In this document: positions 10,263 through 18,648 of the stretch, one piece after another
How positions within the stretch are numbered: position 1 is the first letter of the stretch
How the letters are laid out: every line of letters begins with the position of its first letter
From: Escherichia coli
GTDB lineage: Bacteria; Pseudomonadota; Gammaproteobacteria; Enterobacterales; Enterobacteriaceae
NCBI RefSeq assembly: GCF_003334355.1
Contig: NZ_QOWP01000001.1
Direction: 5' to 3' (one strand)
Length of the DNA: 64,000 bases
Position numbers and translations under genes: made by a program
The notes under the pieces: model-generated
Database searches by the model: none
Seen by the model: only the letters and a program-made list of their open reading frames with translations
Told to the model about the DNA's origin: nothing

Positions 10263-11405
10263 TTAAATCTGCTTTTCATACAATCGGTAACGCTTGTACG
10301 GCTCTGCCCCAATGCGTTCCAGCATGTTATTCATGCCTGTATTGGTTTCGAGGATCCATGACATCTCCAGCGCATCGATCTTCCGGCGGGCAAACGGATC
10401 GCGTAAGGCTTCAATCAATAACAGCGCAATCACCGGGCCGATGCGGCTGAACTGATACTCGTCGCGCACGCCCATCAGCGGTACTCGCGCAGTTCGCACA
10501 CCGCTGACTTTCAAACGCCACAGCAATTTTGCCCAGCCGAAGGGAAAGAGCGATCCGTTCAGATCGGCAATCGCCTCGTTGATGTTCGGCAAGCCGACAA
10601 TAAACGCGCAGGGTGCAGAATCAATCTCAGCGATATAGATCATATCGTCCGGCACCAGATATTTAAGTTGATCGCCCATGGTCGCGAATTCATGTTCGGT
10701 AAACGGCACAAATCCCCAGTTGTGCTGCCAGCCAGAGTTGAAAATCTCACGCAGGATCTGCATCTCTTCGGCAAACCGCTGACGATTGATGCAGCGAATG
10801 GTCACCTTTTTGCGCACCTGATCCATCAGTTTTTTTAGCGCCGGAGAGAAAGTGAGATCGGTTCGCTGCATCCACCACGCCAGTAAATCAATGCCTTTGT
10901 GATAACCCAGTTGTTCAATATGCGCGGCATACCACGGTTTGCCGTGTGGCATCATCGCACAGGGTGGTGTGTCAAAACCTTCAATCAGTAATCCGCTTTC
11001 CTGATTGATATTCAGGCTGAAAGGCCCGCTGATCTTACTTGCACCTTGTGACTTCAACCACGCTTCCGCTACGCCAAACAACGCGGCAAAAACCTGCGGA
11101 TCATCAATGGCGTCAATCATGCCGAAATGACCGGTATCTTTGCCGTAACGCTCGCGGTGCAAGGTATCTATTTGCGCGGTAATACGCCCAACTATCTGCC
11201 CCGCTTTTTTTGCCACCCACGCCTGCCAGATGATATGGTCCGTCCCCGGATTTTTCGCAGACAAATGCTCGTTGCGTTCAATGAATAAAGGGGGTATCCA
11301 GTTTGGATCGTCGGGATAAAGTGATGACGGAAAAGCGATAAATGCCTTAAGGTCATTTTTATTAATTACTTTTTCAATTTTAATCATCAGCAGATCGCAT
11401 TCCAT
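10263..11405 (-). CDS. yghO: YghO, GNAT-fold (acyl-CoA N-acyltransferase superfamily) protein; candidate N-acyltransferase of the adjacent lipid island
   Basis: Long minus-strand ORF; the track start at 11483 is a TTG. First ATG at 11403-11405 gives MECDLLMIKIEKV...; a second candidate ATG lies at 11387. Start uncertain. Family assignment is from memory of YghO annotation, not a motif I can prove here. Confidence 0.65.
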   Translation of the reverse strand: MECDLLMIKIEKVINKNDLKAFIAFPSSLYPDDPNWIPPLFIERNEHLSAKNPGTDHIIWQAWVAKKAGQIVGRITAQIDTLHRERYGKDTGHFGMIDAIDDPQVFAALFGVAEAWLKSQGASKISGPFSLNINQESGLLIEGFDTPPCAMMPHGKPWYAAHIEQLGYHKGIDLLAWWMQRTDLTFSPALKKLMDQVRKKVTIRCINRQRFAEEMQILREIFNSGWQHNWGFVPFTEHEFATMGDQLKYLVPDDMIYIAEIDSAPCAFIVGLPNINEAIADLNGSLFPFGWAKLLWRLKVSGVRTARVPLMGVRDEYQFSRIGPVIALLLIEALRDPFARRKIDALEMSWILETNTGMNNMLERIGAEPYKRYRLYEKQI

Positions 11406-11780
11406 AGTTCTGTTCTGTGGGTAACAAATAATTAACGGTGACAAACAGGTTGCAACAGCAACGAACGGCACCTTAATAATCAACCCAATGAATACAAACG
11501 ACGAATAAATAGTATTTATTAATGATTACGATAAGGTCAGAGACTACACAGAAGCGCCACAATGCCTTTTGTCGATTTAAGGCGACCGGACAAGGCTTCT
11601 TCTTAATACATTCATAAATTAAATATCATTCACAATAAAAACAAAAAACTTAAACTCATTATTTAAATCAATGTTCATTTTCACACCGATGAAAATACTA
11701 TCTCATTTATCTTTTATGCCTATATAATCCACCGCATTATTGTCATTTTATTTTTGATATCCAATTTTTTCGTGGTGTAT
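11406..11780. promoter_or_regulatory. AT-rich divergent promoter region between yghO and the acyl-AMP ligase operon
   Basis: Visibly AT-rich spacer (e.g. ttcataaattaaatatcattcacaataaaaacaaaaaacttaaactcattatttaaatcaatg) between divergent starts; typical of H-NS-silenced accessory promoters. Confidence 0.4.
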
Positions 11781-13502
11781 ATGTCTAATAAAATCTTTAC
11801 GCATTCCCTACCTATGCGCTATGCCGATTTTCCAACGCTGGTTGATGCTTTGGACTACGCCGCTCTGAGTAGCGCCGGAATGAATTTTTATGACAGACGT
11901 TGCCAACTTGAAGATCAACTGGAATATCAGACGTTAAAAACGCGTGCCGAAGCTGGTGCGAAGCGGTTGTTATCGCTGAACCTGAAAAAAGGCGAACGCG
12001 TGGCGCTGATTGCCGAAACGAGTAGCGGGTTCGTAGAGGCTTTTTTTGCCTGCCAGTATGCCGGCTTAGTCGCCGTCCCGTTGGCGATTCCAATGGGCGT
12101 TGGTCAGCGGGATTCCTGGAGCGCCAAATTGCAGGGTTTACTGGCAAGTTGCCAGCCCGCAGCCATTATCACTGGTGATGAGTGGTTGCCACTGGTCAAT
12201 GCCGCGACGCATGACAACCCCGAATTACATGTTTTAAGCCACGCCTGGTTTAAGGCATTACCGGAAGCCGATGTTGCGCTCCAGCGTCCAGTTCCGAACG
12301 ATATCGCCGACCTCCAGTACACCTCCGGCAGCACCCGTTTTCCCCGTGGCGTCATTATCACCCATCGCGAAGTGATGGCTAATCTACGTGCTATAAGCCA
12401 CGACGGCATTAAATTACGCCCTGGCGACCGCTGCGTCTCCTGGCTGCCTTTCTACCATGATATGGGACTGGTCGGCTTTCTCCTGACCCCCGTCGCCACG
12501 CAGCTTTCAGTAGATTATTTGCGCACTCAGGATTTTGCCATACGTCCTCTGCAATGGCTTAAATTGATCAGTAAAAATCGCGGCACCGTTTCCGTTGCGC
12601 CGCCGTTTGGCTATGAATTGTGCCAGCGCCGCGTGAATGAAAAAGATCTCGCTGAACTGGATCTTTCCTGCTGGCGCGTCGCTGGTATTGGTGCAGAACC
12701 CATCTCCGCAGAACAACTCCATCAATTCGCTGAATGTTTCCGTCAGGTTAACTTTGACAATAAAACTTTCATGCCGTGCTACGGACTGGCAGAAAATGCG
12801 CTGGCTGTCAGCTTCTCTGATGAAGCCTCCGGGGTTGTGGTTAACGAAGTGGATCGCGACATCCTCGAATATCAGGGTAAAGCCGTCGCGCCGGGTGCAG
12901 AGACACGCGCCGTATCGACTTTCGTCAACTGCGGCAAAGCGTTGCCGGAACATGGTATTGAAATCCGCAATGAAGCAGGTATGCCGGTCGCGGAACGTGT
13001 GGTAGGCCATATTTGCATCTCCGGTCCCAGTCTGATGAGCGGTTACTTTGGCGACCAGGCTTCGCAAGACGAGATTGCCGCGACGGGCTGGTTAGACACC
13101 GGCGACCTCGGTTATCTGCTGGACGGTTATCTGTATGTCACCGGACGCATTAAAGATCTGATTATTATTCGTGGCCGTAATATCTGGCCGCAGGATATTG
13201 AATATATAGCGGAACAGGAACCGGAAATTCATTCTGGCGATGCGATTGCTTTTGTTACCGCCCAGGAAAAAATCATTTTGCAGATCCAGTGTCGGATCAG
13301 CGACGAAGAACGTCGCGGGCAGCTTATCCACGCGCTGGCGGCACGGATCCAAAGCGAATTTGGCGTGACCGCGGCTATCGATCTGTTGCCGCCCCACAGT
13401 ATTCCCCGAACGTCCTCCGGCAAGCCTGCCCGTGCGGAAGCGAAAAAACGTTATCAGAAGGCTTATGCTGCCAGTCTTAATGTGCAGGAATCCCTGGCAT
13501 GA
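11781..13502 (+). CDS. Fatty acyl-AMP ligase / acyl-ACP synthetase (AMP-binding adenylate-forming family)
   Basis: Adenylation motifs YTSGSTRFPRGV, YGLAEN, DTGDLGY and GRIKDLIIIRGRNIWPQDIE; C-terminal SGKPARAE. Track start 11754 is TTG; first ATG is 11781 (MSNKIF), start uncertain. Stop overlaps next gene start (ATGA at 13499-13502). Confidence 0.8.
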   Translation: MSNKIFTHSLPMRYADFPTLVDALDYAALSSAGMNFYDRRCQLEDQLEYQTLKTRAEAGAKRLLSLNLKKGERVALIAETSSGFVEAFFACQYAGLVAVPLAIPMGVGQRDSWSAKLQGLLASCQPAAIITGDEWLPLVNAATHDNPELHVLSHAWFKALPEADVALQRPVPNDIADLQYTSGSTRFPRGVIITHREVMANLRAISHDGIKLRPGDRCVSWLPFYHDMGLVGFLLTPVATQLSVDYLRTQDFAIRPLQWLKLISKNRGTVSVAPPFGYELCQRRVNEKDLAELDLSCWRVAGIGAEPISAEQLHQFAECFRQVNFDNKTFMPCYGLAENALAVSFSDEASGVVVNEVDRDILEYQGKAVAPGAETRAVSTFVNCGKALPEHGIEIRNEAGMPVAERVVGHICISGPSLMSGYFGDQASQDEIAATGWLDTGDLGYLLDGYLYVTGRIKDLIIIRGRNIWPQDIEYIAEQEPEIHSGDAIAFVTAQEKIILQIQCRISDEERRGQLIHALAARIQSEFGVTAAIDLLPPHSIPRTSSGKPARAEAKKRYQKAYAASLNVQESLA

Positions 13503-14413
13503 ATCAAACTGTCGCGGTGACGGGCGCTACCGGGTTTATCGGTAAATATATTATCGATAACCTGCTCGCCCGCGGCTTTCACGTTCGCGCATTGACGCGT
13601 ACTGCCCGCGCTCACGTCAATGATAATCTCACCTGGGTGCGCGGTTCGCTGGAAGATACTCATTCACTTAGCGAGCTGGTTGCCGGAGCCAGCGTAGTGG
13701 TCCATTGCGCCGGGCAAGTGCGCGGGCACAAAGAAGAGATTTTCACCCGCTGTAACGTTGACGGCAGCCTGCGCCTGATGCAAGCAGCAAAAGAGAGCGG
13801 CTTTTGCCAACGTTTTCTGTTTATCTCTTCGCTGGCGGCGCGCCATCCCGAGCTCTCCTGGTATGCAAAATCCAAATACGTCGCCGAGCAACGACTGGCA
13901 GCAATGGCGGACGAAATTACGCTGGGCGTTTTTCGCCCGACAGCCGTGTATGGTCCCGGCGATAAAGAGTTAAAACCGCTGTTTGACTGGATGCTGCGCG
14001 GCCTGCTGCCACGACTTGGTGCGCCAGATACACAGCTCTCTTTTCTGCACGTCACCGATTTCGCGCAAGCAGTGGGTCAGTGGTTAAGCGCCGAAACTAT
14101 ACAGACGCAAACCTATGAATTATGCGATGGCGTCGCCGGCGGCTATGACTGGCAACGCGTACAGCAACTTGCCGCCGACGCCCGTTGCGGTTCCGTGCGA
14201 ATGGTTGGCATTCCTCTGCCGGTACTCACCGGCCTTGCGGATATCAGTACCGCGTTGAGTCGCCTGGCAGGTAAAGAACCTATGCTGACCCGCTCGAAAA
14301 TTCGTGAATTAACCCACGCCGACTGGTCGGCAAGTAATAACCGTATTTCTGAAGATATTAATTGGTTTCCCGGGATTAGCCTGGAACACGCATTACGCAA
14401 CGGGCTATTTTGA
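13499..14413 (+). CDS. NAD(P)-dependent epimerase/dehydratase-family (extended SDR) protein; candidate keto-reductase
   Basis: N-terminal Rossmann motif VAVTGATGFIGKYI and catalytic YAKSK (YxxxK); 304 aa; start overlaps upstream stop. Confidence 0.8.
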   Translation: MNQTVAVTGATGFIGKYIIDNLLARGFHVRALTRTARAHVNDNLTWVRGSLEDTHSLSELVAGASVVVHCAGQVRGHKEEIFTRCNVDGSLRLMQAAKESGFCQRFLFISSLAARHPELSWYAKSKYVAEQRLAAMADEITLGVFRPTAVYGPGDKELKPLFDWMLRGLLPRLGAPDTQLSFLHVTDFAQAVGQWLSAETIQTQTYELCDGVAGGYDWQRVQQLAADARCGSVRMVGIPLPVLTGLADISTALSRLAGKEPMLTRSKIRELTHADWSASNNRISEDINWFPGISLEHALRNGLF

Positions 14414-14444
14414 TTGTCTTGTTTAAAGGTGTGTTAACGTTTCT

Positions 14445-14693
14445 ATGGTAAATCGTGAAATAGTAATGGATTACATCCTTTCCTGTTTACAGGATTTGGT
14501 CGAAAACGGTGTGGAAATTAAGCCCGACAGCGATCTCGTCAACGATCTTGGCCTGGAGTCGATCAAAGTGATGGATCTCTTAATGATGCTGGAAGACAGA
14601 TTCGATATTTCCATTCCTATTAATATTCTGCTGGATGTCAAAACCCCTGCGCAATTAATGGAAACTCTACTTCCATGGCTGGAGAATAAATAA
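14445..14693 (+). CDS. Acyl carrier protein (stand-alone, pathway-dedicated)
   Basis: 82-aa acidic protein with phosphopantetheine-site-like motif DLGLESIKVMDLLMMLEDRF (ACP consensus DLGxDSLxxVEL); stop overlaps next start (TAATG at 14691-14695). Confidence 0.7.
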   Translation: MVNREIVMDYILSCLQDLVENGVEIKPDSDLVNDLGLESIKVMDLLMMLEDRFDISIPINILLDVKTPAQLMETLLPWLENK

Positions 14694-15865
14694 TGGGGCT
14701 ATACGATAAATATGCGCGCCTTGCTGGCGAGCGACTGCAATTTAGTGACAACGGGTTAACACCGTTTGGCACCTGTATTGATGAAGTGTATTCCGCCACC
14801 GAAGGCCGGATCGGCAATAAAAAAGTGATTCTGGCCGGGACCAATAATTATCTCGGTTTAACCTTTAATCATGATGCCATCAGCGAAGGTCAGGCCGCGT
14901 TAGCGGCCCAAGGTACCGGCACCACCGGTTCTCGTATGGCAAACGGCAGTTATGCGCCGCACCTGGCGTTAGAGAAAGAGATTGCCGAGTTTTTCAATCG
15001 CCCTACCGCTATCGTTTTTTCAACCGGTTATACCGCTAATTTAGGCGTCATCAGCGCACTTGCCGACCATAACGCCGTGGTGTTACTGGATGCCGACAGC
15101 CACGCCAGTATTTATGACGCCTGTTCTCTCGGTGGCGCGGAAATTATTCGTTTCCGCCATAACGATGCTAAAGATCTGGAACGGCGCATGGTTCGCCTCG
15201 GTGAACGGGCGAAAGAGGCGATTATCATCGTTGAGGGTATCTACAGCATGCTCGGTGACGTTGCGCCGTTAGCGGAAATTGTTGATATCAAACGTCGTCT
15301 CGGTGGTTATTTGATTGTCGATGAAGCGCATTCGTTTGGCGTGTTAGGCGCAACGGGGCGCGGACTGGCTGAAGCTGTCGGCGTTGAAGATGATGTGGAT
15401 ATTATCGTTGGCACCTTCAGTAAAAGTCTGGCCTCGATTGGCGGTTTTGCTGTCGGTTCGGAAGCGATGGAAGTGCTGCGCTACGGCAGCCGCCCGTATA
15501 TTTTTACCGCCTCTCCTTCTCCGTCCTGCATTGCGACCGTGCGCTCGTCGTTAAGAACTATTGCCACACAACCAGAGCTGCGGCAAAAGCTGATGGATAA
15601 TGCCAACCATCTGTATGACGGTCTGCAAAAACTGGGTTATGAGTTAAGTTCACATATTAGCCCGGTAGTGCCGGTAATAATCGGTTCGAAAGAGGACGGT
15701 TTACGCATCTGGCGCGAGCTTATTTCGCTGGGCGTTTATGTGAATCTTATCCTGCCACCTGCCGCGCCTGCAGGCATCACGCTGCTGCGCTGTAGCGTAA
15801 ACGCTGCTCACAGTCGTGAGCAAATCGATGCCATCATTCAGGCATTTGCTACTCTGAAGCAGTAA
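14693..15865 (+). CDS. PLP-dependent alpha-oxoamine synthase, serine-palmitoyltransferase-like
   Basis: 390 aa; PLP-lysine motif VGTFSKSLASIGGF (GTFSKS...GG is the Spt-type variant; BioF and Kbl have GTLSKA / GTLGKA); also DEAHS and glycine-rich TGTTGSR segments typical of the fold. Confidence 0.85.
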   Translation: MGLYDKYARLAGERLQFSDNGLTPFGTCIDEVYSATEGRIGNKKVILAGTNNYLGLTFNHDAISEGQAALAAQGTGTTGSRMANGSYAPHLALEKEIAEFFNRPTAIVFSTGYTANLGVISALADHNAVVLLDADSHASIYDACSLGGAEIIRFRHNDAKDLERRMVRLGERAKEAIIIVEGIYSMLGDVAPLAEIVDIKRRLGGYLIVDEAHSFGVLGATGRGLAEAVGVEDDVDIIVGTFSKSLASIGGFAVGSEAMEVLRYGSRPYIFTASPSPSCIATVRSSLRTIATQPELRQKLMDNANHLYDGLQKLGYELSSHISPVVPVIIGSKEDGLRIWRELISLGVYVNLILPPAAPAGITLLRCSVNAAHSREQIDAIIQAFATLKQ

Positions 15866-15871
15866 TGTGAG

Positions 15872-15905
15872 CCCGCCGTGGTGTTGCGCCACGGCGGGTT
15901 TAATG
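15872..15905. terminator. Bidirectional intrinsic terminator between convergent operons
   Basis: Stem cccgccgtgg / ccacggcggg (15872-15898) followed by ttt, lying exactly between the stop of the Spt-like gene (15863-15865) and the convergent LptG-like stop (15900-15902). Confidence 0.5.
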
Positions 15906-16979
15906 TTGTCTGTCATACCAATACACCAGGCTCAACGCCACCAGCACAAACGCTATCGGTAAACCGAGCGCGGTAACAGGTGCGCTCAACGCAAATAGCA
16001 ATCCCAGATTGACCATGATTTGATAGCTGATCCAGGTGAGTAAGCCAACGATGACACCTACAGCGAGACGGCTACCCATCCCTGGCGAGCGCGGGGCGCT
16101 AAAGGTAAACGGCACAGCCAGCAAAATCATCGCCAGGGTCAGGATGGGTTGCCCCAGTTTTTCCCACAGTGCAAGGCGGTATTCGCTGCTGGGTTGCCCG
16201 GTTTCCTGCAAATAATGGATGTAATGATTAAGCTAACGGACAGAAAAAGTATTGCCCGGCATTGATAACTCTTCAAGATCCATACTGGTGAAGGCCGATT
16301 GCCAGGCAAGATTATCTAATGTTTCCAGCGTTTCTTTGCCATTCAGCCATTTTTTATGATTCACACCATGCAGGATCCACGTTTTGTCGTCTTCAATGGT
16401 GGCACTGCGTGCATAAATGTAGGATTCGAGCGAGAGATCGTCGCGATAATGAAAAATCTCCACGCCCACCGGCTGGCCCTGCTCGTTCAGCGATTTCACC
16501 GTCACAAATTCATTACCACGCCTGGCCCACAGCATATTGCCGGTAATGTCATCGTCCTCCCCCAACGCGGTGGCGGTCGATTTGATTTGCAACGCCTGTT
16601 GCTGTAATGGCGACGCTACCCACTCATCTATCGCGCCTAACGAAACAGTCCACAATATCCCTGCAACCAGCGCCACCAGTGCAATACGGAAGATAGAAAA
16701 CCCCATGCTGCGAATGGCGGTAAGCTCACTGTTTTTCGATAACTGCCCCAGGCCGACAATCCCTCCCAATAAGGCGATAAATGGCGAAAGTTCGACCAGT
16801 GTGCGCGGTAAGGTCATTAGCACCACCAGCACCGCCTGAGTCCAGCGATAACCGCCCGGGCTGACATCATCCAGTTCGTTAATCAGGTTGAAGGTGGTAA
16901 AAAGCGGCAGCAATAGCCCTGCGGCGGCGGCAAAACCGAGAAAGAGATGACGGATTAAATAGCGGCTGAAAACATTCAT
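15900..16979 (-). pseudogene. LptG-like (YjgP/YjgQ family) permease interrupted by a single in-frame TAG
   Basis: ORFs 16233..17060 (N-part; ATG at 16979, MNVFSRYLIRHLFLGF...) and 15900..16211 (C-part, ...YRLALWEKLGQPILTLAMILLAVPF...) are in the same frame, separated only by TAG at 16233-16235. Together they give a ~360-codon LptG-type reading frame. Confidence 0.65.
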
Positions 16980-18046
16980 CGGGAAAATTTCTGCAGCAAA
17001 GAGAAGTCGCGTGCGACCAGCATCAGCAGGCCCATTAGCATGAGTCCGGGTACTAACCACAAACCAGGAATGAGGGGAATCGCGCCGTTAGCCACCAGCG
17101 TACGGCAGACGTCACCGCCATAAAAAATGGCAATAAACAGCAACGTCAGTGGCAATAACGTTGAAAATCGCCCTTGCCGCGGTTTTACCCGACTTAATGA
17201 AATGGCCAGCAGCGCCATCAACAATGCGGTCAGGCCACGGCTTTGCCGCCATTGCAGTTCGGCATGATCGGCCGGAAAGACGGAGCGCGCCAGCTCCGTG
17301 ACCGATTTTGCTTTGCGTTTGACGTTAGGGCTTTGATCCAGCGGATTCAGATGTAATTGCAGATTACGGTAGATCTGTTCGTTGTCGTCACGCCCCTGAT
17401 GATCGAGAAGATAGGCGGTGCCGTTGTGCAACATAACGGTCGGTTTCTCGGGAGATGGGTCAACCACATCAACCGAACGGGCACGGAAAATGCGGGTTCG
17501 ATTGGCAGTAGAAGTATAAATCAGCGCGTCAGTCAGGCGATTATTATCCTGATCAACCGTCTGCGAAAGGATCATTCGTCCGTTATCGTTAGTGTTAAAT
17601 TTCTTTGCCCGCAACTGGCGAACATCCAGCTCCGACTGCGACTGCTGCTCCAGTTGATAAATCTGCGCATAAGCCCACGGACGACCATACATCGACAGAA
17701 GGGTGACAAAAATACTTAGCGGTATCGCCAGATAAAGAACGGCTTTGTACAAGCGTCCCGGACTGCCCCCCGCCGCAGAGATAGCGGTAATTTCCGAGTC
17801 GGTATACATCTGCCCTAGCGTCACGCCAACTGACACATACAGACCAACAGGTAACAACATCTCCAGTGCAATCAGCACTTTGTAGAAAACGATATCCAGC
17901 ACAACATCAAGAGCTAATGTCCCATTTGCCGCTTCGGTCAGATAACGCTGTGAGGAGTAGCTGGCGAAAATAAAGATCAGAAAACCGACGATAATCAGCA
18001 CCAGACGGCGCGTACCACGCATGATGTAGTGTTCAACCAGCTTCAT
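16976..18046 (-). CDS. LptF-like (YjgP/YjgQ family) permease paralog
   Basis: 356-aa membrane protein; MYTDSEITAISAAGGSPGRLYK and SRVKPRQGRFSTLLP resemble LptF LYTESEIT / NPRQGR motifs; stop overlaps LptG-like start (ATGA at 16976-16979). Confidence 0.8.
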   Translation of the reverse strand: MKLVEHYIMRGTRRLVLIIVGFLIFIFASYSSQRYLTEAANGTLALDVVLDIVFYKVLIALEMLLPVGLYVSVGVTLGQMYTDSEITAISAAGGSPGRLYKAVLYLAIPLSIFVTLLSMYGRPWAYAQIYQLEQQSQSELDVRQLRAKKFNTNDNGRMILSQTVDQDNNRLTDALIYTSTANRTRIFRARSVDVVDPSPEKPTVMLHNGTAYLLDHQGRDDNEQIYRNLQLHLNPLDQSPNVKRKAKSVTELARSVFPADHAELQWRQSRGLTALLMALLAISLSRVKPRQGRFSTLLPLTLLFIAIFYGGDVCRTLVANGAIPLIPGLWLVPGLMLMGLLMLVARDFSLLQKFSR

Positions 18047-18076
18047 CTCACTAACGCCCTCAATCCTTTGAGTTTT

Positions 18077-18640
18077 TTATTCATTGATCAGTTTCTGCGC
18101 CAACGCAATGACATGATCTACCTCTTCCGGCGTCAGGCTGCCGTCCTTTGCCCACTGAATTTGCCCGGCTTTATTCAGCACCAGAATGGTTGAACTCTGC
18201 TCCGGCAAGCGCCAGGCAACGCGTCCCTGTCCATTGCCGTCAATAACGAATTGCGCCCACGGATAGCGGCGTTTATTTTTTTCGATTTTGCCAACAACAA
18301 AATAGCCAGTACCAAAGATGGCATCATCGGTGTTCACAATGGTGGTGGGCTGAAAACGATCCTGCGGAAAGTTTGCCGCTTCAACCGCTTTAATTAACAG
18401 TGAGTTCTTTTTCTTCGCCGACTTACGCCCGGCGATATACTGGATAATGCGGACTTTTCCCGCCAATTGTGTGCTGTTCCACTTTTGGTAGTGAATTTCG
18501 TCGTCACTATTCAGAAGCAGCTCGCCGCCTTCCTGGATATAAACGGGGGTAACCGTTTTGCCAGTGACGAAATTGTGTGCCTGAACACCCGGGGCTAAGA
18601 GCATGATAATCAGCGCAATAATCAAACGAAATGACATCAT
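18077..18640 (-). CDS. Periplasmic YtfJ-family-like protein with signal peptide
   Basis: 187 aa, N-terminal signal peptide MMSFRLIIALIIMLLAPGVQA; central TTIVNTDDAIFGTGYF and C-terminal WAKDGSLTPEEV resemble YtfJ (from memory). Confidence 0.55.
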   Translation of the reverse strand: MMSFRLIIALIIMLLAPGVQAHNFVTGKTVTPVYIQEGGELLLNSDDEIHYQKWNSTQLAGKVRIIQYIAGRKSAKKKNSLLIKAVEAANFPQDRFQPTTIVNTDDAIFGTGYFVVGKIEKNKRRYPWAQFVIDGNGQGRVAWRLPEQSSTILVLNKAGQIQWAKDGSLTPEEVDHVIALAQKLINE

Positions 18641-18648
18641 TGCTCCGG

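What the first reader, a model, noticed from the sequence alone, without database searches (positions are those of the whole stretch)
14693..15865. PLP-lysine motif of the alpha-oxoamine synthase is the serine-palmitoyltransferase variant
Seen: the active-site region reads VGTFSKSLASIGGF. From memory of the family, Spt enzymes carry GTF(S/T)KS....GG around the Schiff-base lysine, whereas BioF has GTLSKALG, Kbl GTLGKALGG and ALAS GTLAKAFG. The Phe at the third position and Ser after the Lys therefore point to Spt-like rather than biotin or threonine-degradation chemistry. bioF and kbl are not expected at this locus in E. coli.
Basis: partly seen in the sequence, partly recalled or inferred. Interest (0 to 1): 0.7.

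Follow-up and report, generated by a model that had tools for sequence, protein, structure and literature searches.

The report
Known E. coli serine palmitoyltransferase gene

Summary
The ORF at 14693-15865 (+) is real: 390 aa with VGTFSKSLASIGGF around the Schiff-base lysine, K244.

It is a serine palmitoyltransferase (Spt).
- It passes NCBIfam's curated Spt equivalog NF047599 (599 bits, cut-off 500). It fails the BioF, Kbl, ALAS and CqsA models.
- It is 46% identical to the crystallised Sphingomonas paucimobilis SPT and groups with it at 100% bootstrap.
- RefSeq already calls the gene spt.
- The protein is 100% identical to E. coli BL21(DE3) ECD_02854. Padilla-Gómez et al. 2022 showed that this protein makes 3-oxo-sphinganine from L-serine and palmitoyl-AcpR.
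- The upstream genes (acyl-AcpR synthetase, reductase-like epi, dedicated ACP) complete the published operon.
- The locus is in 4195 of 5426 complete E. coli genomes. K-12 lost it through an IS5-associated deletion.

The motif argument holds only in part.
- Phe at position 3 also occurs in E. coli's own BioF (VTFGKG).
- Some BioFs read GTFSKA.
- Yeast ALAS has Ser after the Lys.
- One protein that passes the Spt model has Thr after the Lys.
- The full GTF[ST]KS appeared only in Spt or Spt-like sequences in my sample.

Verdict: correct, already known, low interest. This strain has a private nonsense mutation in the neighbouring lptG2.

The parts
14693..15865 (+). spt: serine palmitoyltransferase, 390 aa, a PLP-dependent alpha-oxoamine synthase
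   Evidence: ORF and translation. NCBIfam NF047599, 599 bits against a cut-off of 500. PDB 2jg2 at E = 4e-111. Annotated spt in RefSeq. 100% identical to the assayed BL21(DE3) ECD_02854.
15410..15448 (+). PLP-binding motif GTFSKSLASIGGF, residues 240-252. The Schiff-base Lys244 codon is 15422-15424.
   Evidence: It aligns with K265 of S. paucimobilis SPT. The motif GTFSKSXXXXGG is named in PMC5519370.
14445..14693 (+). acpR: dedicated acyl carrier protein, 82 aa, with LGLES around the probable 4'-phosphopantetheine serine. Its stop codon overlaps the spt ATG by 1 nt.
   Evidence: 100% identical to BL21(DE3) ECD_02853, which carries 4'-phosphopantetheine according to PMC9386255.
13499..14413 (+). 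epi: NAD-dependent epimerase/dehydratase-family protein, the presumptive 3-oxo-sphinganine or oxo-ceramide reductase. Its start overlaps the aasR stop (ATGA).
   Evidence: Identical to ECD_02852. The role is only proposed in PMC9386255.
11814..13502 (+). aasR: fatty acyl-AMP ligase that loads AcpR (acyl-AcpR synthetase)
   Evidence: NCBIfam NF006624, 867 bits against a cut-off of 600. It differs at 9 residues from BL21(DE3) ECD_02851. AasREc acylates AcpREc in vivo according to PMC9386255.
10263..11405 (-). yghO (aca): candidate N-acyltransferase (ceramide synthase), divergently transcribed
   Evidence: Annotated YghO. One residue differs from BL21(DE3). It is equated with Caulobacter CC_1154 in PMC9386255. 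No NCBIfam hit. The function is inferred.
15868..15902 (.). 16-bp GC-rich hairpin between the convergent spt and lptG2 genes; a likely shared terminator
   Evidence: This is a consensus match only.
15900..16979 (-). lptG2: LptG paralogue and putative sphingolipid exporter subunit. In this strain it is broken by an in-frame nonsense codon (Q249*, 16233-16235).
   Evidence: The 81-nt stretch containing the stop codon is 100% identical in only 1 of 3700 matching genomes, strain PSS-12. The transport role is inferred from Caulobacter work (bioRxiv 10.64898/2026.04.12.717747).
16976..18046 (-). lptF2: LptF paralogue, partner of lptG2
   Evidence: NCBIfam TIGR04407, 317 bits against a cut-off of 230. 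Annotation. Context.

Best explanation
The gene encodes the E. coli serine palmitoyltransferase of the alpha/beta/gamma-proteobacterial ('rhodobacterial') type. By homology to solved SPTs it is presumed to act as a PLP-dependent homodimer with PLP held as a Schiff base on Lys244. L-serine displaces the lysine to form the external aldimine. The enzyme then carries out a decarboxylative Claisen condensation with a long-chain acyl thioester and releases 3-oxo-sphinganine and CO2. The preferred acyl donor is not acyl-CoA. It is acyl-AcpR, the small carrier protein encoded directly upstream and translationally coupled to spt, which is loaded from free fatty acid by the acyl-AMP ligase AasR at the head of the same operon. 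The epi product and the divergent yghO product are the presumed reductase and N-acyltransferase that convert the product to dihydroceramide. The adjacent lptF2/lptG2 genes and the flippase-like yghQ are presumed export functions. Shown: the identity of the enzyme, its catalytic residues, the operon layout, and, from the literature, the activity of an identical protein. Inferred: the downstream steps, the export route, and whether and when E. coli makes sphingolipid naturally.
For: Classification. NCBIfam equivalog NF047599 'serine palmitoyltransferase' scores 599 bits against a cut-off of 500. BioF (333/426), Kbl (297/460), ALAS (219/339) and CqsA-type (222/428) all fall below their cut-offs.

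Similarity. The best solved relatives are S. paucimobilis and S. wittichii SPT at E about 1e-110. Identity is 46% to S. paucimobilis SPT, against 32-33% to E. coli's own BioF and Kbl. An NJ tree puts the protein in a 100%-bootstrap clade with S. paucimobilis SPT and NF047599-positive sequences.

Catalytic residues. H137, D210, H213, K244 and R366 align with H159, D231, H234, K265 and R390 of S. paucimobilis SPT. Ala273 occupies the position that is Lys281 in the cysteate enzyme SulA.

Annotation. RefSeq names the gene spt.

Biochemistry. The Spt, AcpR and epi proteins are 100% identical to BL21(DE3) ECD_02854, ECD_02853 and ECD_02852. For these proteins PMC9386255 reports three things: 3-oxo-sphinganine formation from L-[14C]serine; a strong preference for palmitoyl-AcpR over palmitoyl-CoA or palmitoyl-AcpP; and in vivo product formation when AasREc, AcpREc and SPTEc are co-expressed.

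Operon. The acpR stop overlaps the spt start, and aasR overlaps epi.
Against: Nothing contradicts the enzyme assignment. Several limits apply. The published assays used cell-free extracts and TLC co-migration, plus an m/z value from earlier work, not purified E. coli enzyme with kinetics. In the papers I read, product formation was shown only after over-expression; I found no report of natural sphingolipid production by E. coli. AasR in this strain differs at 9 residues from the assayed BL21 protein. lptG2 is truncated here, so the complete pathway may not work in this isolate.
Confidence: 0.95

Rival explanations
1. The protein is a second BioF or Kbl: an 8-amino-7-oxononanoate synthase or glycine C-acetyltransferase serving biotin synthesis or threonine breakdown. 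Older database names for the same protein say this.
For: Some database members of the same 90% cluster are still named '8-amino-7-oxononanoate synthase'. The overall fold and catalytic residues are shared with BioF and Kbl.
Against: The protein scores below the curated cut-offs of the BioF and Kbl models and above that of the Spt model. It is only 32-33% identical to E. coli BioF and Kbl. It sits in a separate clade. There are no bio or tdh neighbours, and genuine bioF and kbl exist elsewhere in the genome. An identical protein uses serine.
Confidence: 0.01
2. The protein is an Spt-like condensing enzyme whose natural substrates in E. coli are not serine plus a C16 chain. It might use cysteate (sulfonolipid type), alanine or glycine (deoxy-sphingoid bases), or an unusual acyl chain chosen by AasR.
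For: The Lys motif cannot settle amino-acid specificity. SulA is reported to have an active site identical to that of Spt apart from one residue. Many GTFSKS proteins pass no curated Spt cut-off. PMC9386255 has a section on relaxed substrate specificity of rhodobacterial SPTs. The chain-length preference of AasREc was not read here.
Against: Ala273 is the Spt state, not the SulA Lys. L-[14C]serine was incorporated by the identical enzyme, and the product co-migrated with 3-oxo-sphinganine. The protein passes the Spt equivalog model.
Confidence: 0.05
3. The enzyme is intact but the pathway is silent or decaying in this isolate. Spt would then be a competent enzyme with no physiological output here, because the exporter subunit lptG2 carries a premature stop.
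For: Q249* in lptG2 is private to one of 3700 genomes. In Caulobacter, the lptF2, lptG2 and lptC2 paralogues were linked to sphingolipid transport. Loss of the transporters was reported to be toxic when sphingolipid is made, and lptC2 could be deleted only in a strain lacking spt. Tolerance of the truncation here therefore suggests low flux. K-12 lost the whole locus without obvious cost.
Against: Spt, AcpR and epi are identical to the proteins of other strains, and the locus is kept in 77% of complete genomes. That pattern argues for selection at the species level. A single nonsense mutation may be recent, or even a sequencing error.
Confidence: 0.3

Closest known systems
E. coli BL21(DE3) SPT, ECD_02854 (WP_000524970.1), with AcpR ECD_02853 and AasR ECD_02851 (Padilla-Gómez et al. 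2022, PMC9386255)
   Same: The Spt, AcpR and epi proteins are 100% identical. The gene order yghO / aasR-epi-acpR-spt / lptG2-lptF2 is the same.
   Different: AasR differs at 9 residues, YghO at 1 and LptF2 at 2. LptG2 has a nonsense codon in the window strain.
Sphingomonas paucimobilis SPT (PDB 2jg2 and related entries) and S. wittichii SPT (2x8u)
   Same: 46% identity over 387 columns to S. paucimobilis SPT. Same clade. Both sphingomonad SPTs read GTFSKSxxxxGGF. The catalytic His, Asp, His, Lys and Arg are conserved with S. paucimobilis SPT.
   Different: E. coli has Leu354 where S. paucimobilis has Arg378, and Asn51 where it has Tyr73. Leu, Val or Ile at that position is the common state among relatives: 87 of 132 representatives, with Arg in only 9.
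Caulobacter crescentus Spt CC_1162 and the AcpR/AasR three-protein system
   Same: The same three-component logic and operon neighbourhood, including lptF2/lptG2 paralogues.
   Different: The E. coli locus has no DAG-kinase-like ceramide kinase CpgB, which carries a GGDG motif. Instead three P-loop ATP-binding paralogues, YghR, YghS and YghT, lie nearby. AasREc does not acylate Caulobacter AcpR.
Bacteroidota SPT (Sphingobacterium multivorum 3a2b) and SulA, the cysteate acyl-ACP transferase (7u7h, 28eh)
   Same: Same fold. S. multivorum SPT reads GTFSKSLASLGGF. A Bacteroides finegoldii homologue has a 13-mer identical to that of E. coli Spt.
   Different: 39% identity to S. multivorum SPT and a separate clade. 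SulA has Lys281 where Spt, including E. coli Ala273, has Ala.
E. coli BioF and Kbl; ALAS
   Same: Alpha-oxoamine synthase fold with the conserved His, Asp, His, Lys and Arg.
   Different: 32-33% identity to E. coli BioF and Kbl. The motifs are VTFGKGFG in E. coli BioF and GTLGKALGG in Kbl; ALAS reads GTL(A/G)KA(F/Y)G, or GTLGKSFG in yeast. They use different amino-acid and acyl substrates (established knowledge of these families).

Membership tests
alpha-oxoamine synthase (AOS) family of fold-type I PLP enzymes | Full-length homology to solved AOS enzymes, with the Schiff-base Lys and the conserved His (stacks on PLP), Asp (binds the pyridinium N), His and C-terminal Arg | tested here: met
   Residues 3-385 align with PDB 2jg2 at E = 4e-111. 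H137, D210, H213, K244 and R366 are present. H137, D210, H213, K244 and R366 are invariant in the alignment with E. coli BioF and Kbl.
serine palmitoyltransferase (Spt), proteobacterial type | Score above the curated whole-protein cut-off of an Spt equivalog model, and below the cut-offs of sister families | tested here: met
   NF047599 scores 599.2 bits against 500. BioF 333/426, Kbl 297/460, ALAS 219/339 and CqsA-type 222/428 all fail.
serine palmitoyltransferase (Spt), proteobacterial type | Phylogenetic placement with experimentally characterised SPTs | tested here: met
   An NJ tree on 372 columns with 100 bootstraps gives a 100%-support clade containing E. coli Spt, S. paucimobilis SPT and the NF047599-positive representatives. 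BioF, Kbl and ALAS fall outside it.
serine palmitoyltransferase (Spt) | PLP-binding motif GTF(S/T)KSxxxxGG | tested here: met
   GTFSKSLASIGGF is present, and the motif is named in PMC5519370. The feature is sensitive, but its specificity is unproven. 77 of 141 nearest cluster representatives carry GTF[ST]KS, and many of them pass no Spt cut-off. One Spt-model-positive sequence has GTFSKT.
serine palmitoyltransferase (Spt) versus cysteate acyltransferase (SulA) | Ala, not Lys, at the position of SulA Lys281 (F-S/T-A-S) | tested here: met
   The sequence reads IFTAS with Ala273. The criterion comes from PMC9304779. SulA's own Lys-motif sequence could not be read with these tools.
rhodobacterial Spt/AcpR/AasR system | A dedicated acp gene immediately upstream of spt, and an acyl-AMP ligase gene nearby | tested here: met
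   acpR lies at 14445-14693 and overlaps the spt start. aasR lies at 11814-13502 in the same orientation. The rule is stated in PMC9386255.
serine palmitoyltransferase (Spt) | Catalysis: L-serine + long-chain acyl thioester -> 3-oxo-sphinganine + CO2 | not testable with these tools
   Not assayed here. The activity is reported for the sequence-identical BL21(DE3) protein in PMC9386255.
BioF (8-amino-7-oxononanoate synthase) | Passes TIGR00858, and has a bio-operon context | tested here: not met
   333.4 bits against a cut-off of 426.45. There are no bio genes nearby. The genuine bioF lies in bioABFCD.
Kbl (glycine C-acetyltransferase) | Passes NF005394 or TIGR01822, and has tdh as a neighbour | tested here: not met
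   296.7 bits against 460, and 248.3 against 493. The genuine kbl-tdh pair lies elsewhere.
ALAS and CqsA-type autoinducer synthase | Passes TIGR01821 or NF005526 | tested here: not met
   218.8 bits against 338.55, and 221.5 against 428. The CqsA Lys motif itself was not examined.

The most novel reading that the evidence does not exclude
Wild E. coli strains that carry this locus may make, under conditions not yet identified, a sphingolipid whose head group differs from the Caulobacter ceramide phosphoglycerates. It might be built by the three P-loop paralogues YghR, YghS and YghT rather than by a DAG-kinase-type ceramide kinase. It would be exported to the outer membrane by LptF2/LptG2 and YghQ. 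K-12 work has missed it because an IS5-associated deletion removed the genes. The enzyme in this finding would be the committed step of that uncharacterised lipid.
Probability: 0.2. Interest if true: 0.55.

Novelty: already known. Interest (0 to 1): 0.1.

Why it matters
E. coli is usually taught as having no sphingolipids because K-12 lacks this locus. In fact about three quarters of complete E. coli genomes carry a full spt operon whose enzymes work when expressed. That is published and annotated, so this finding adds nothing new about the enzyme. Two practical points follow. First, the Lys-motif rule of thumb should be used as a whole hexapeptide, and only as a hint. Second, the open question is physiological: when do natural isolates express the pathway, what is the final lipid, and what does it do? 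The gene's identity is not in doubt.

Tried and rejected
(1) The word-indexed homologue search listed only near-identical enterobacterial proteins (Escherichia, Pseudocitrobacter, Citrobacter amalonaticus, Hafnia). It was useless for the cross-family motif test.

(2) I tried to read the Lys-motif of the cysteate enzyme SulA (PDB 7u7h, 28eh) by querying the PDB with three different 75-90-aa segments and one full-length protein. SulA never reached the five printed alignments, and the paper's held supplement contains no sequence. Whether SulA also reads GTFSKS therefore remains unread. I relied on the paper's statement that the active sites differ only at Lys281.

(3) I considered that Leu354, in place of Arg378 of S. 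paucimobilis SPT, might mark an atypical enzyme. I rejected this: Leu, Val or Ile is the majority state among relatives, and Arg is rare.

(4) I considered YghR, YghS and YghT as homologues of the Caulobacter ceramide kinase CpgB. The paper describes CpgB as DAG-kinase-like with a GGDG motif, whereas YghR/S/T are annotated as P-loop dTMP-kinase-like proteins. No link is established.

(5) The promoter scan gave no more sites than shuffled sequence, so I make no claim about promoters.

(6) I did not run structure prediction. 46% identity to a crystal structure already fixes the fold.

Full report
**Observation.** Window 14693-15865 on the + strand is a single ORF of 390 codons. Its translation contains VGTFSKSLASIGGF at residues 239-252, and the lysine is K244. 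The reverse strand is full of stop codons. The coordinates coincide with the RefSeq CDS for WP_000524970.1.

**What the gene is.**
- A 4.2-kb query spanning the four co-oriented genes matches 4195 of 5426 complete E. coli genomes. RefSeq annotates the genes as fatty acyl-AMP ligase, NAD-dependent epimerase/dehydratase family protein, acyl carrier protein, and 'spt: serine palmitoyltransferase'.
- Against NCBIfam the protein scores 599 bits on the equivalog NF047599 (serine palmitoyltransferase, cut-off 500). It falls below the cut-offs of BioF (333/426), Kbl (297/460), ALAS (219/339) and the CqsA-type synthase (222/428).
- Its best solved relatives are the Sphingomonas paucimobilis and S. wittichii SPTs at E about 1e-110, followed by Sphingobacterium multivorum SPT, and only then Kbl, BioF and ALAS.
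- Identity is 46% to S. paucimobilis SPT, 39% to S. multivorum SPT, and 32-33% to E. coli's own BioF and Kbl.
- In a bootstrapped NJ tree the protein sits in a 100%-support clade with S. paucimobilis SPT and representatives that pass NF047599. BioF, Kbl, ALAS and the Bacteroidota SPT-like group lie outside that clade.
- The catalytic set of S. paucimobilis SPT (H159, D231, H234, K265, R390) aligns with H137, D210, H213, K244 and R366.

**Published experimental status.** The window's Spt, AcpR and epi proteins are 100% identical to BL21(DE3) ECD_02854, ECD_02853 and ECD_02852. YghO differs at 1 residue and AasR at 9. Padilla-Gómez et al. 2022 (PMC9386255) cloned exactly these BL21(DE3) genes. 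They report the following:
- AcpREc carries 4'-phosphopantetheine.
- Extracts containing SPTEc convert L-[14C]serine plus palmitoyl-AcpR into a product that migrates as 3-oxo-sphinganine. Palmitoyl-CoA and palmitoyl-AcpP are poor substrates.
- Co-expressing AasREc, AcpREc and SPTEc yields 3-oxo-sphinganine in vivo.
- ECD_02852 (epi) and yghO (ECD_02850) are proposed as the reductase and the N-acyltransferase.

A 2026 preprint draws the E. coli UTI89 sphingolipid locus beside those of Caulobacter and Sphingomonas. It shows that the Caulobacter lptF2 and lptG2 paralogues are needed for sphingolipid transport. The identity and mechanism of this enzyme are therefore already in the literature and in the annotation.

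**Anatomy of the locus.**
- aasR (11814-13502) overlaps epi (13499-14413) by ATGA.
- acpR (14445-14693) ends in TAA, and its last base is the A of the spt ATG. This indicates translational coupling.
- A 16-bp GC-rich hairpin (15868-15902) separates spt from the convergent lptG2.
- yghO is divergent upstream.
- Downstream on the minus strand lie lptG2, lptF2, a YtfJ-family gene, a hypothetical gene, the flippase-like yghQ, and yghR and yghS. yghT follows on the plus strand.
- In K-12 MG1655 an IS5 element sits between a truncated yghO and a truncated yghQ, and everything from aasR to the hypothetical gene is missing. This explains why the pathway is absent from K-12-based knowledge.

This was the stated refutation criterion, so I tested it directly.

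*Anchors with curated or experimental identity.*

| Family | Source | Motif |
|---|---|---|
| BioF | E. coli | VTFGKGFG |
| BioF | Acinetobacter | GTFGKALASVGGY |
| BioF | Azospirillum | GTFSKALGGFGAY |
| Kbl | E. coli, Ralstonia | GTLGKALGGASGG |
| ALAS | Rhodobacter capsulatus | GTLAKAYG |
| ALAS | PDB 7x98 | GTLAKAFG |
| ALAS | human ALAS2 | GTLGKAFG |
| ALAS | yeast | GTLGKSFG |
| AOS/KBL | Thermus | ATLSKAWAG |
| SPT | S. paucimobilis, S. wittichii | GTFSKSVGTVGGF |
| SPT | S. multivorum | GTFSKSLASLGGF |
| SPT (LCB2a) | Arabidopsis | GTFTKSFG |

*An exhaustive profile-free search.* It found 21,256 relatives among 1.84 billion cluster representatives. Of the best 150, 141 are informative for the motif:
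- 67 read GTFSKS and 10 read GTFTKS.
- 111 have Phe at position 3.
- After the Lys, 100 have Ser, 27 have Ala and 11 have Thr.

*Labelling 30 of these with NCBIfam*:
- Four pass the Spt model: three with GTFSKS and one, P0127, with GTFSKT.
- Five pass the BioF model: GTFSKA once, GTLGKA once, GTLSKA three times.
- Twenty-one pass no curated cut-off, and many of these read GTFSKS.

*Conclusions from the motif test.*
- Phe at position 3 is not diagnostic. It is present in E. coli's own BioF.
- Ser after the Lys is neither exclusive to Spt (yeast ALAS has it) nor universal within Spt.
- The whole hexapeptide GTF[ST]KS was found only in Spt or Spt-like sequences in this sample. This agrees with the published description of GTFSKSXXXXGG as the sphingomonad SPT motif and GTFTKSFG in eukaryotic LCB2.
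- The hexapeptide marks a broad clade whose substrate specificity is mostly untested. The cysteate-using SulA is reported to have an active site identical to that of Spt except for Lys281 in place of an alanine. E. coli Spt has that alanine, Ala273 in IFTAS. I could not read SulA's own motif with the tools available.
The motif is a fair heuristic but not proof.

**A possible oddity that is not one.** S. paucimobilis Arg378 corresponds to Leu354 here. Across 132 representatives this position is Leu, Val or Ile in 87 and Arg in only 9. The E. coli state is therefore the norm.

**Strain-specific note.** lptG2 (15900-16979, minus strand) carries an in-frame stop (Q249*, 16233-16235) relative to BL21(DE3) and 042. 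An 81-nt query centred on the stop is 100% identical in only one of 3700 matching genomes, strain PSS-12. That strain is also the only 100% match for the operon. The window very probably comes from that strain, and the mutation is private. In Caulobacter, loss of these transporters is reported to be toxic when sphingolipid is made, and the related lptC2 could be deleted only in a strain lacking spt. Tolerance of the truncation here therefore hints that flux through the pathway is low under the conditions this strain has experienced. This is inference only.

**Verdict.** The feature is an already annotated and biochemically studied enzyme, so novelty is 'already known' and interest is low. The open part is physiological: whether and when E. 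coli isolates make a sphingolipid, what its head group is, and what the YghR/S/T paralogues and LptF2/G2 do.

Noticed in passing
window 15900-16979 (-), stop codon at 16233-16235: The lptG2 paralogue next to spt has an in-frame nonsense codon (Q249*) relative to BL21(DE3) and 042. The exact 81-nt stretch occurs in only 1 of 3700 matching complete genomes, strain PSS-12. The mutation is therefore private, and the window probably comes from that strain.
   Followed up: partly
L006 (K-12 MG1655 NC_000913.3 3129043-3132408), versus window 10263-20822: In K-12 an IS5 element (insH9) sits between a truncated yghO and a truncated yghQ. aasR, epi, acpR, spt, lptG2, lptF2, the ytfJ-like gene and a hypothetical gene are all absent.
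   Followed up: partly
window 20868-21626 (-), 21658-22371 (-), 22545-23237 (+): Three paralogous P-loop ATP-binding proteins, YghR, YghS and YghT, flank the sphingolipid and flippase genes. PGAP labels two of them 'dTMP kinase'. They are not the DAG-kinase-type ceramide kinase described for Caulobacter. Their role is unknown; they could be lipid head-group kinases.
   Followed up: no
window 18649-19473 (-) and 10263-11483 (-): The 274-aa hypothetical protein between the ytfJ-like gene and yghQ has no NCBIfam match at E <= 0.001. Neither does YghO, although YghO is proposed to be the ceramide-forming N-acyltransferase.
   Followed up: no
P0142 (cluster representative, 427 aa): An Spt-clade relative (39% identity, 411 bits on NF047599) lacks the catalytic residues. 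It reads SSLANA where GTFSKS should be: Asn replaces the Schiff-base Lys, Ser replaces the stacking His, and Asp replaces the second His. It looks like a pseudo-enzyme.
   Followed up: no
P0126 (794 aa), and many representatives of 600-1700 aa: Spt-like domains that carry GTFSKS are often fused to large extra regions. P0126 is 53% identical to E. coli Spt over its C-terminal half and has about 400 extra N-terminal residues. Several proteins of 1000-1500 aa share the variant GTFSKSLASIGGW. Their domain content and substrates were not examined.
   Followed up: no
L009 (Roseomonas mucosa plasmid p1-AD3, NZ_CP034903.1 170835-179977): An acp-spt pair (50% identical to E. coli Spt) lies on a 386-kb plasmid of a human skin commensal. 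It sits among glycosyltransferases, an oligosaccharide flippase, a DAG-kinase-family gene and a CDP-alcohol phosphatidyltransferase gene. This is a plasmid-borne candidate locus for a complex sphingolipid.
   Followed up: no
P0045: A 443-aa entry from a eukaryotic protein set (eukprot) is 99% identical to E. coli Spt and also carries an ACP Pfam domain (PF00550). It looks like an acpR-spt read-through call from bacterial contamination of a eukaryotic assembly.
   Followed up: no
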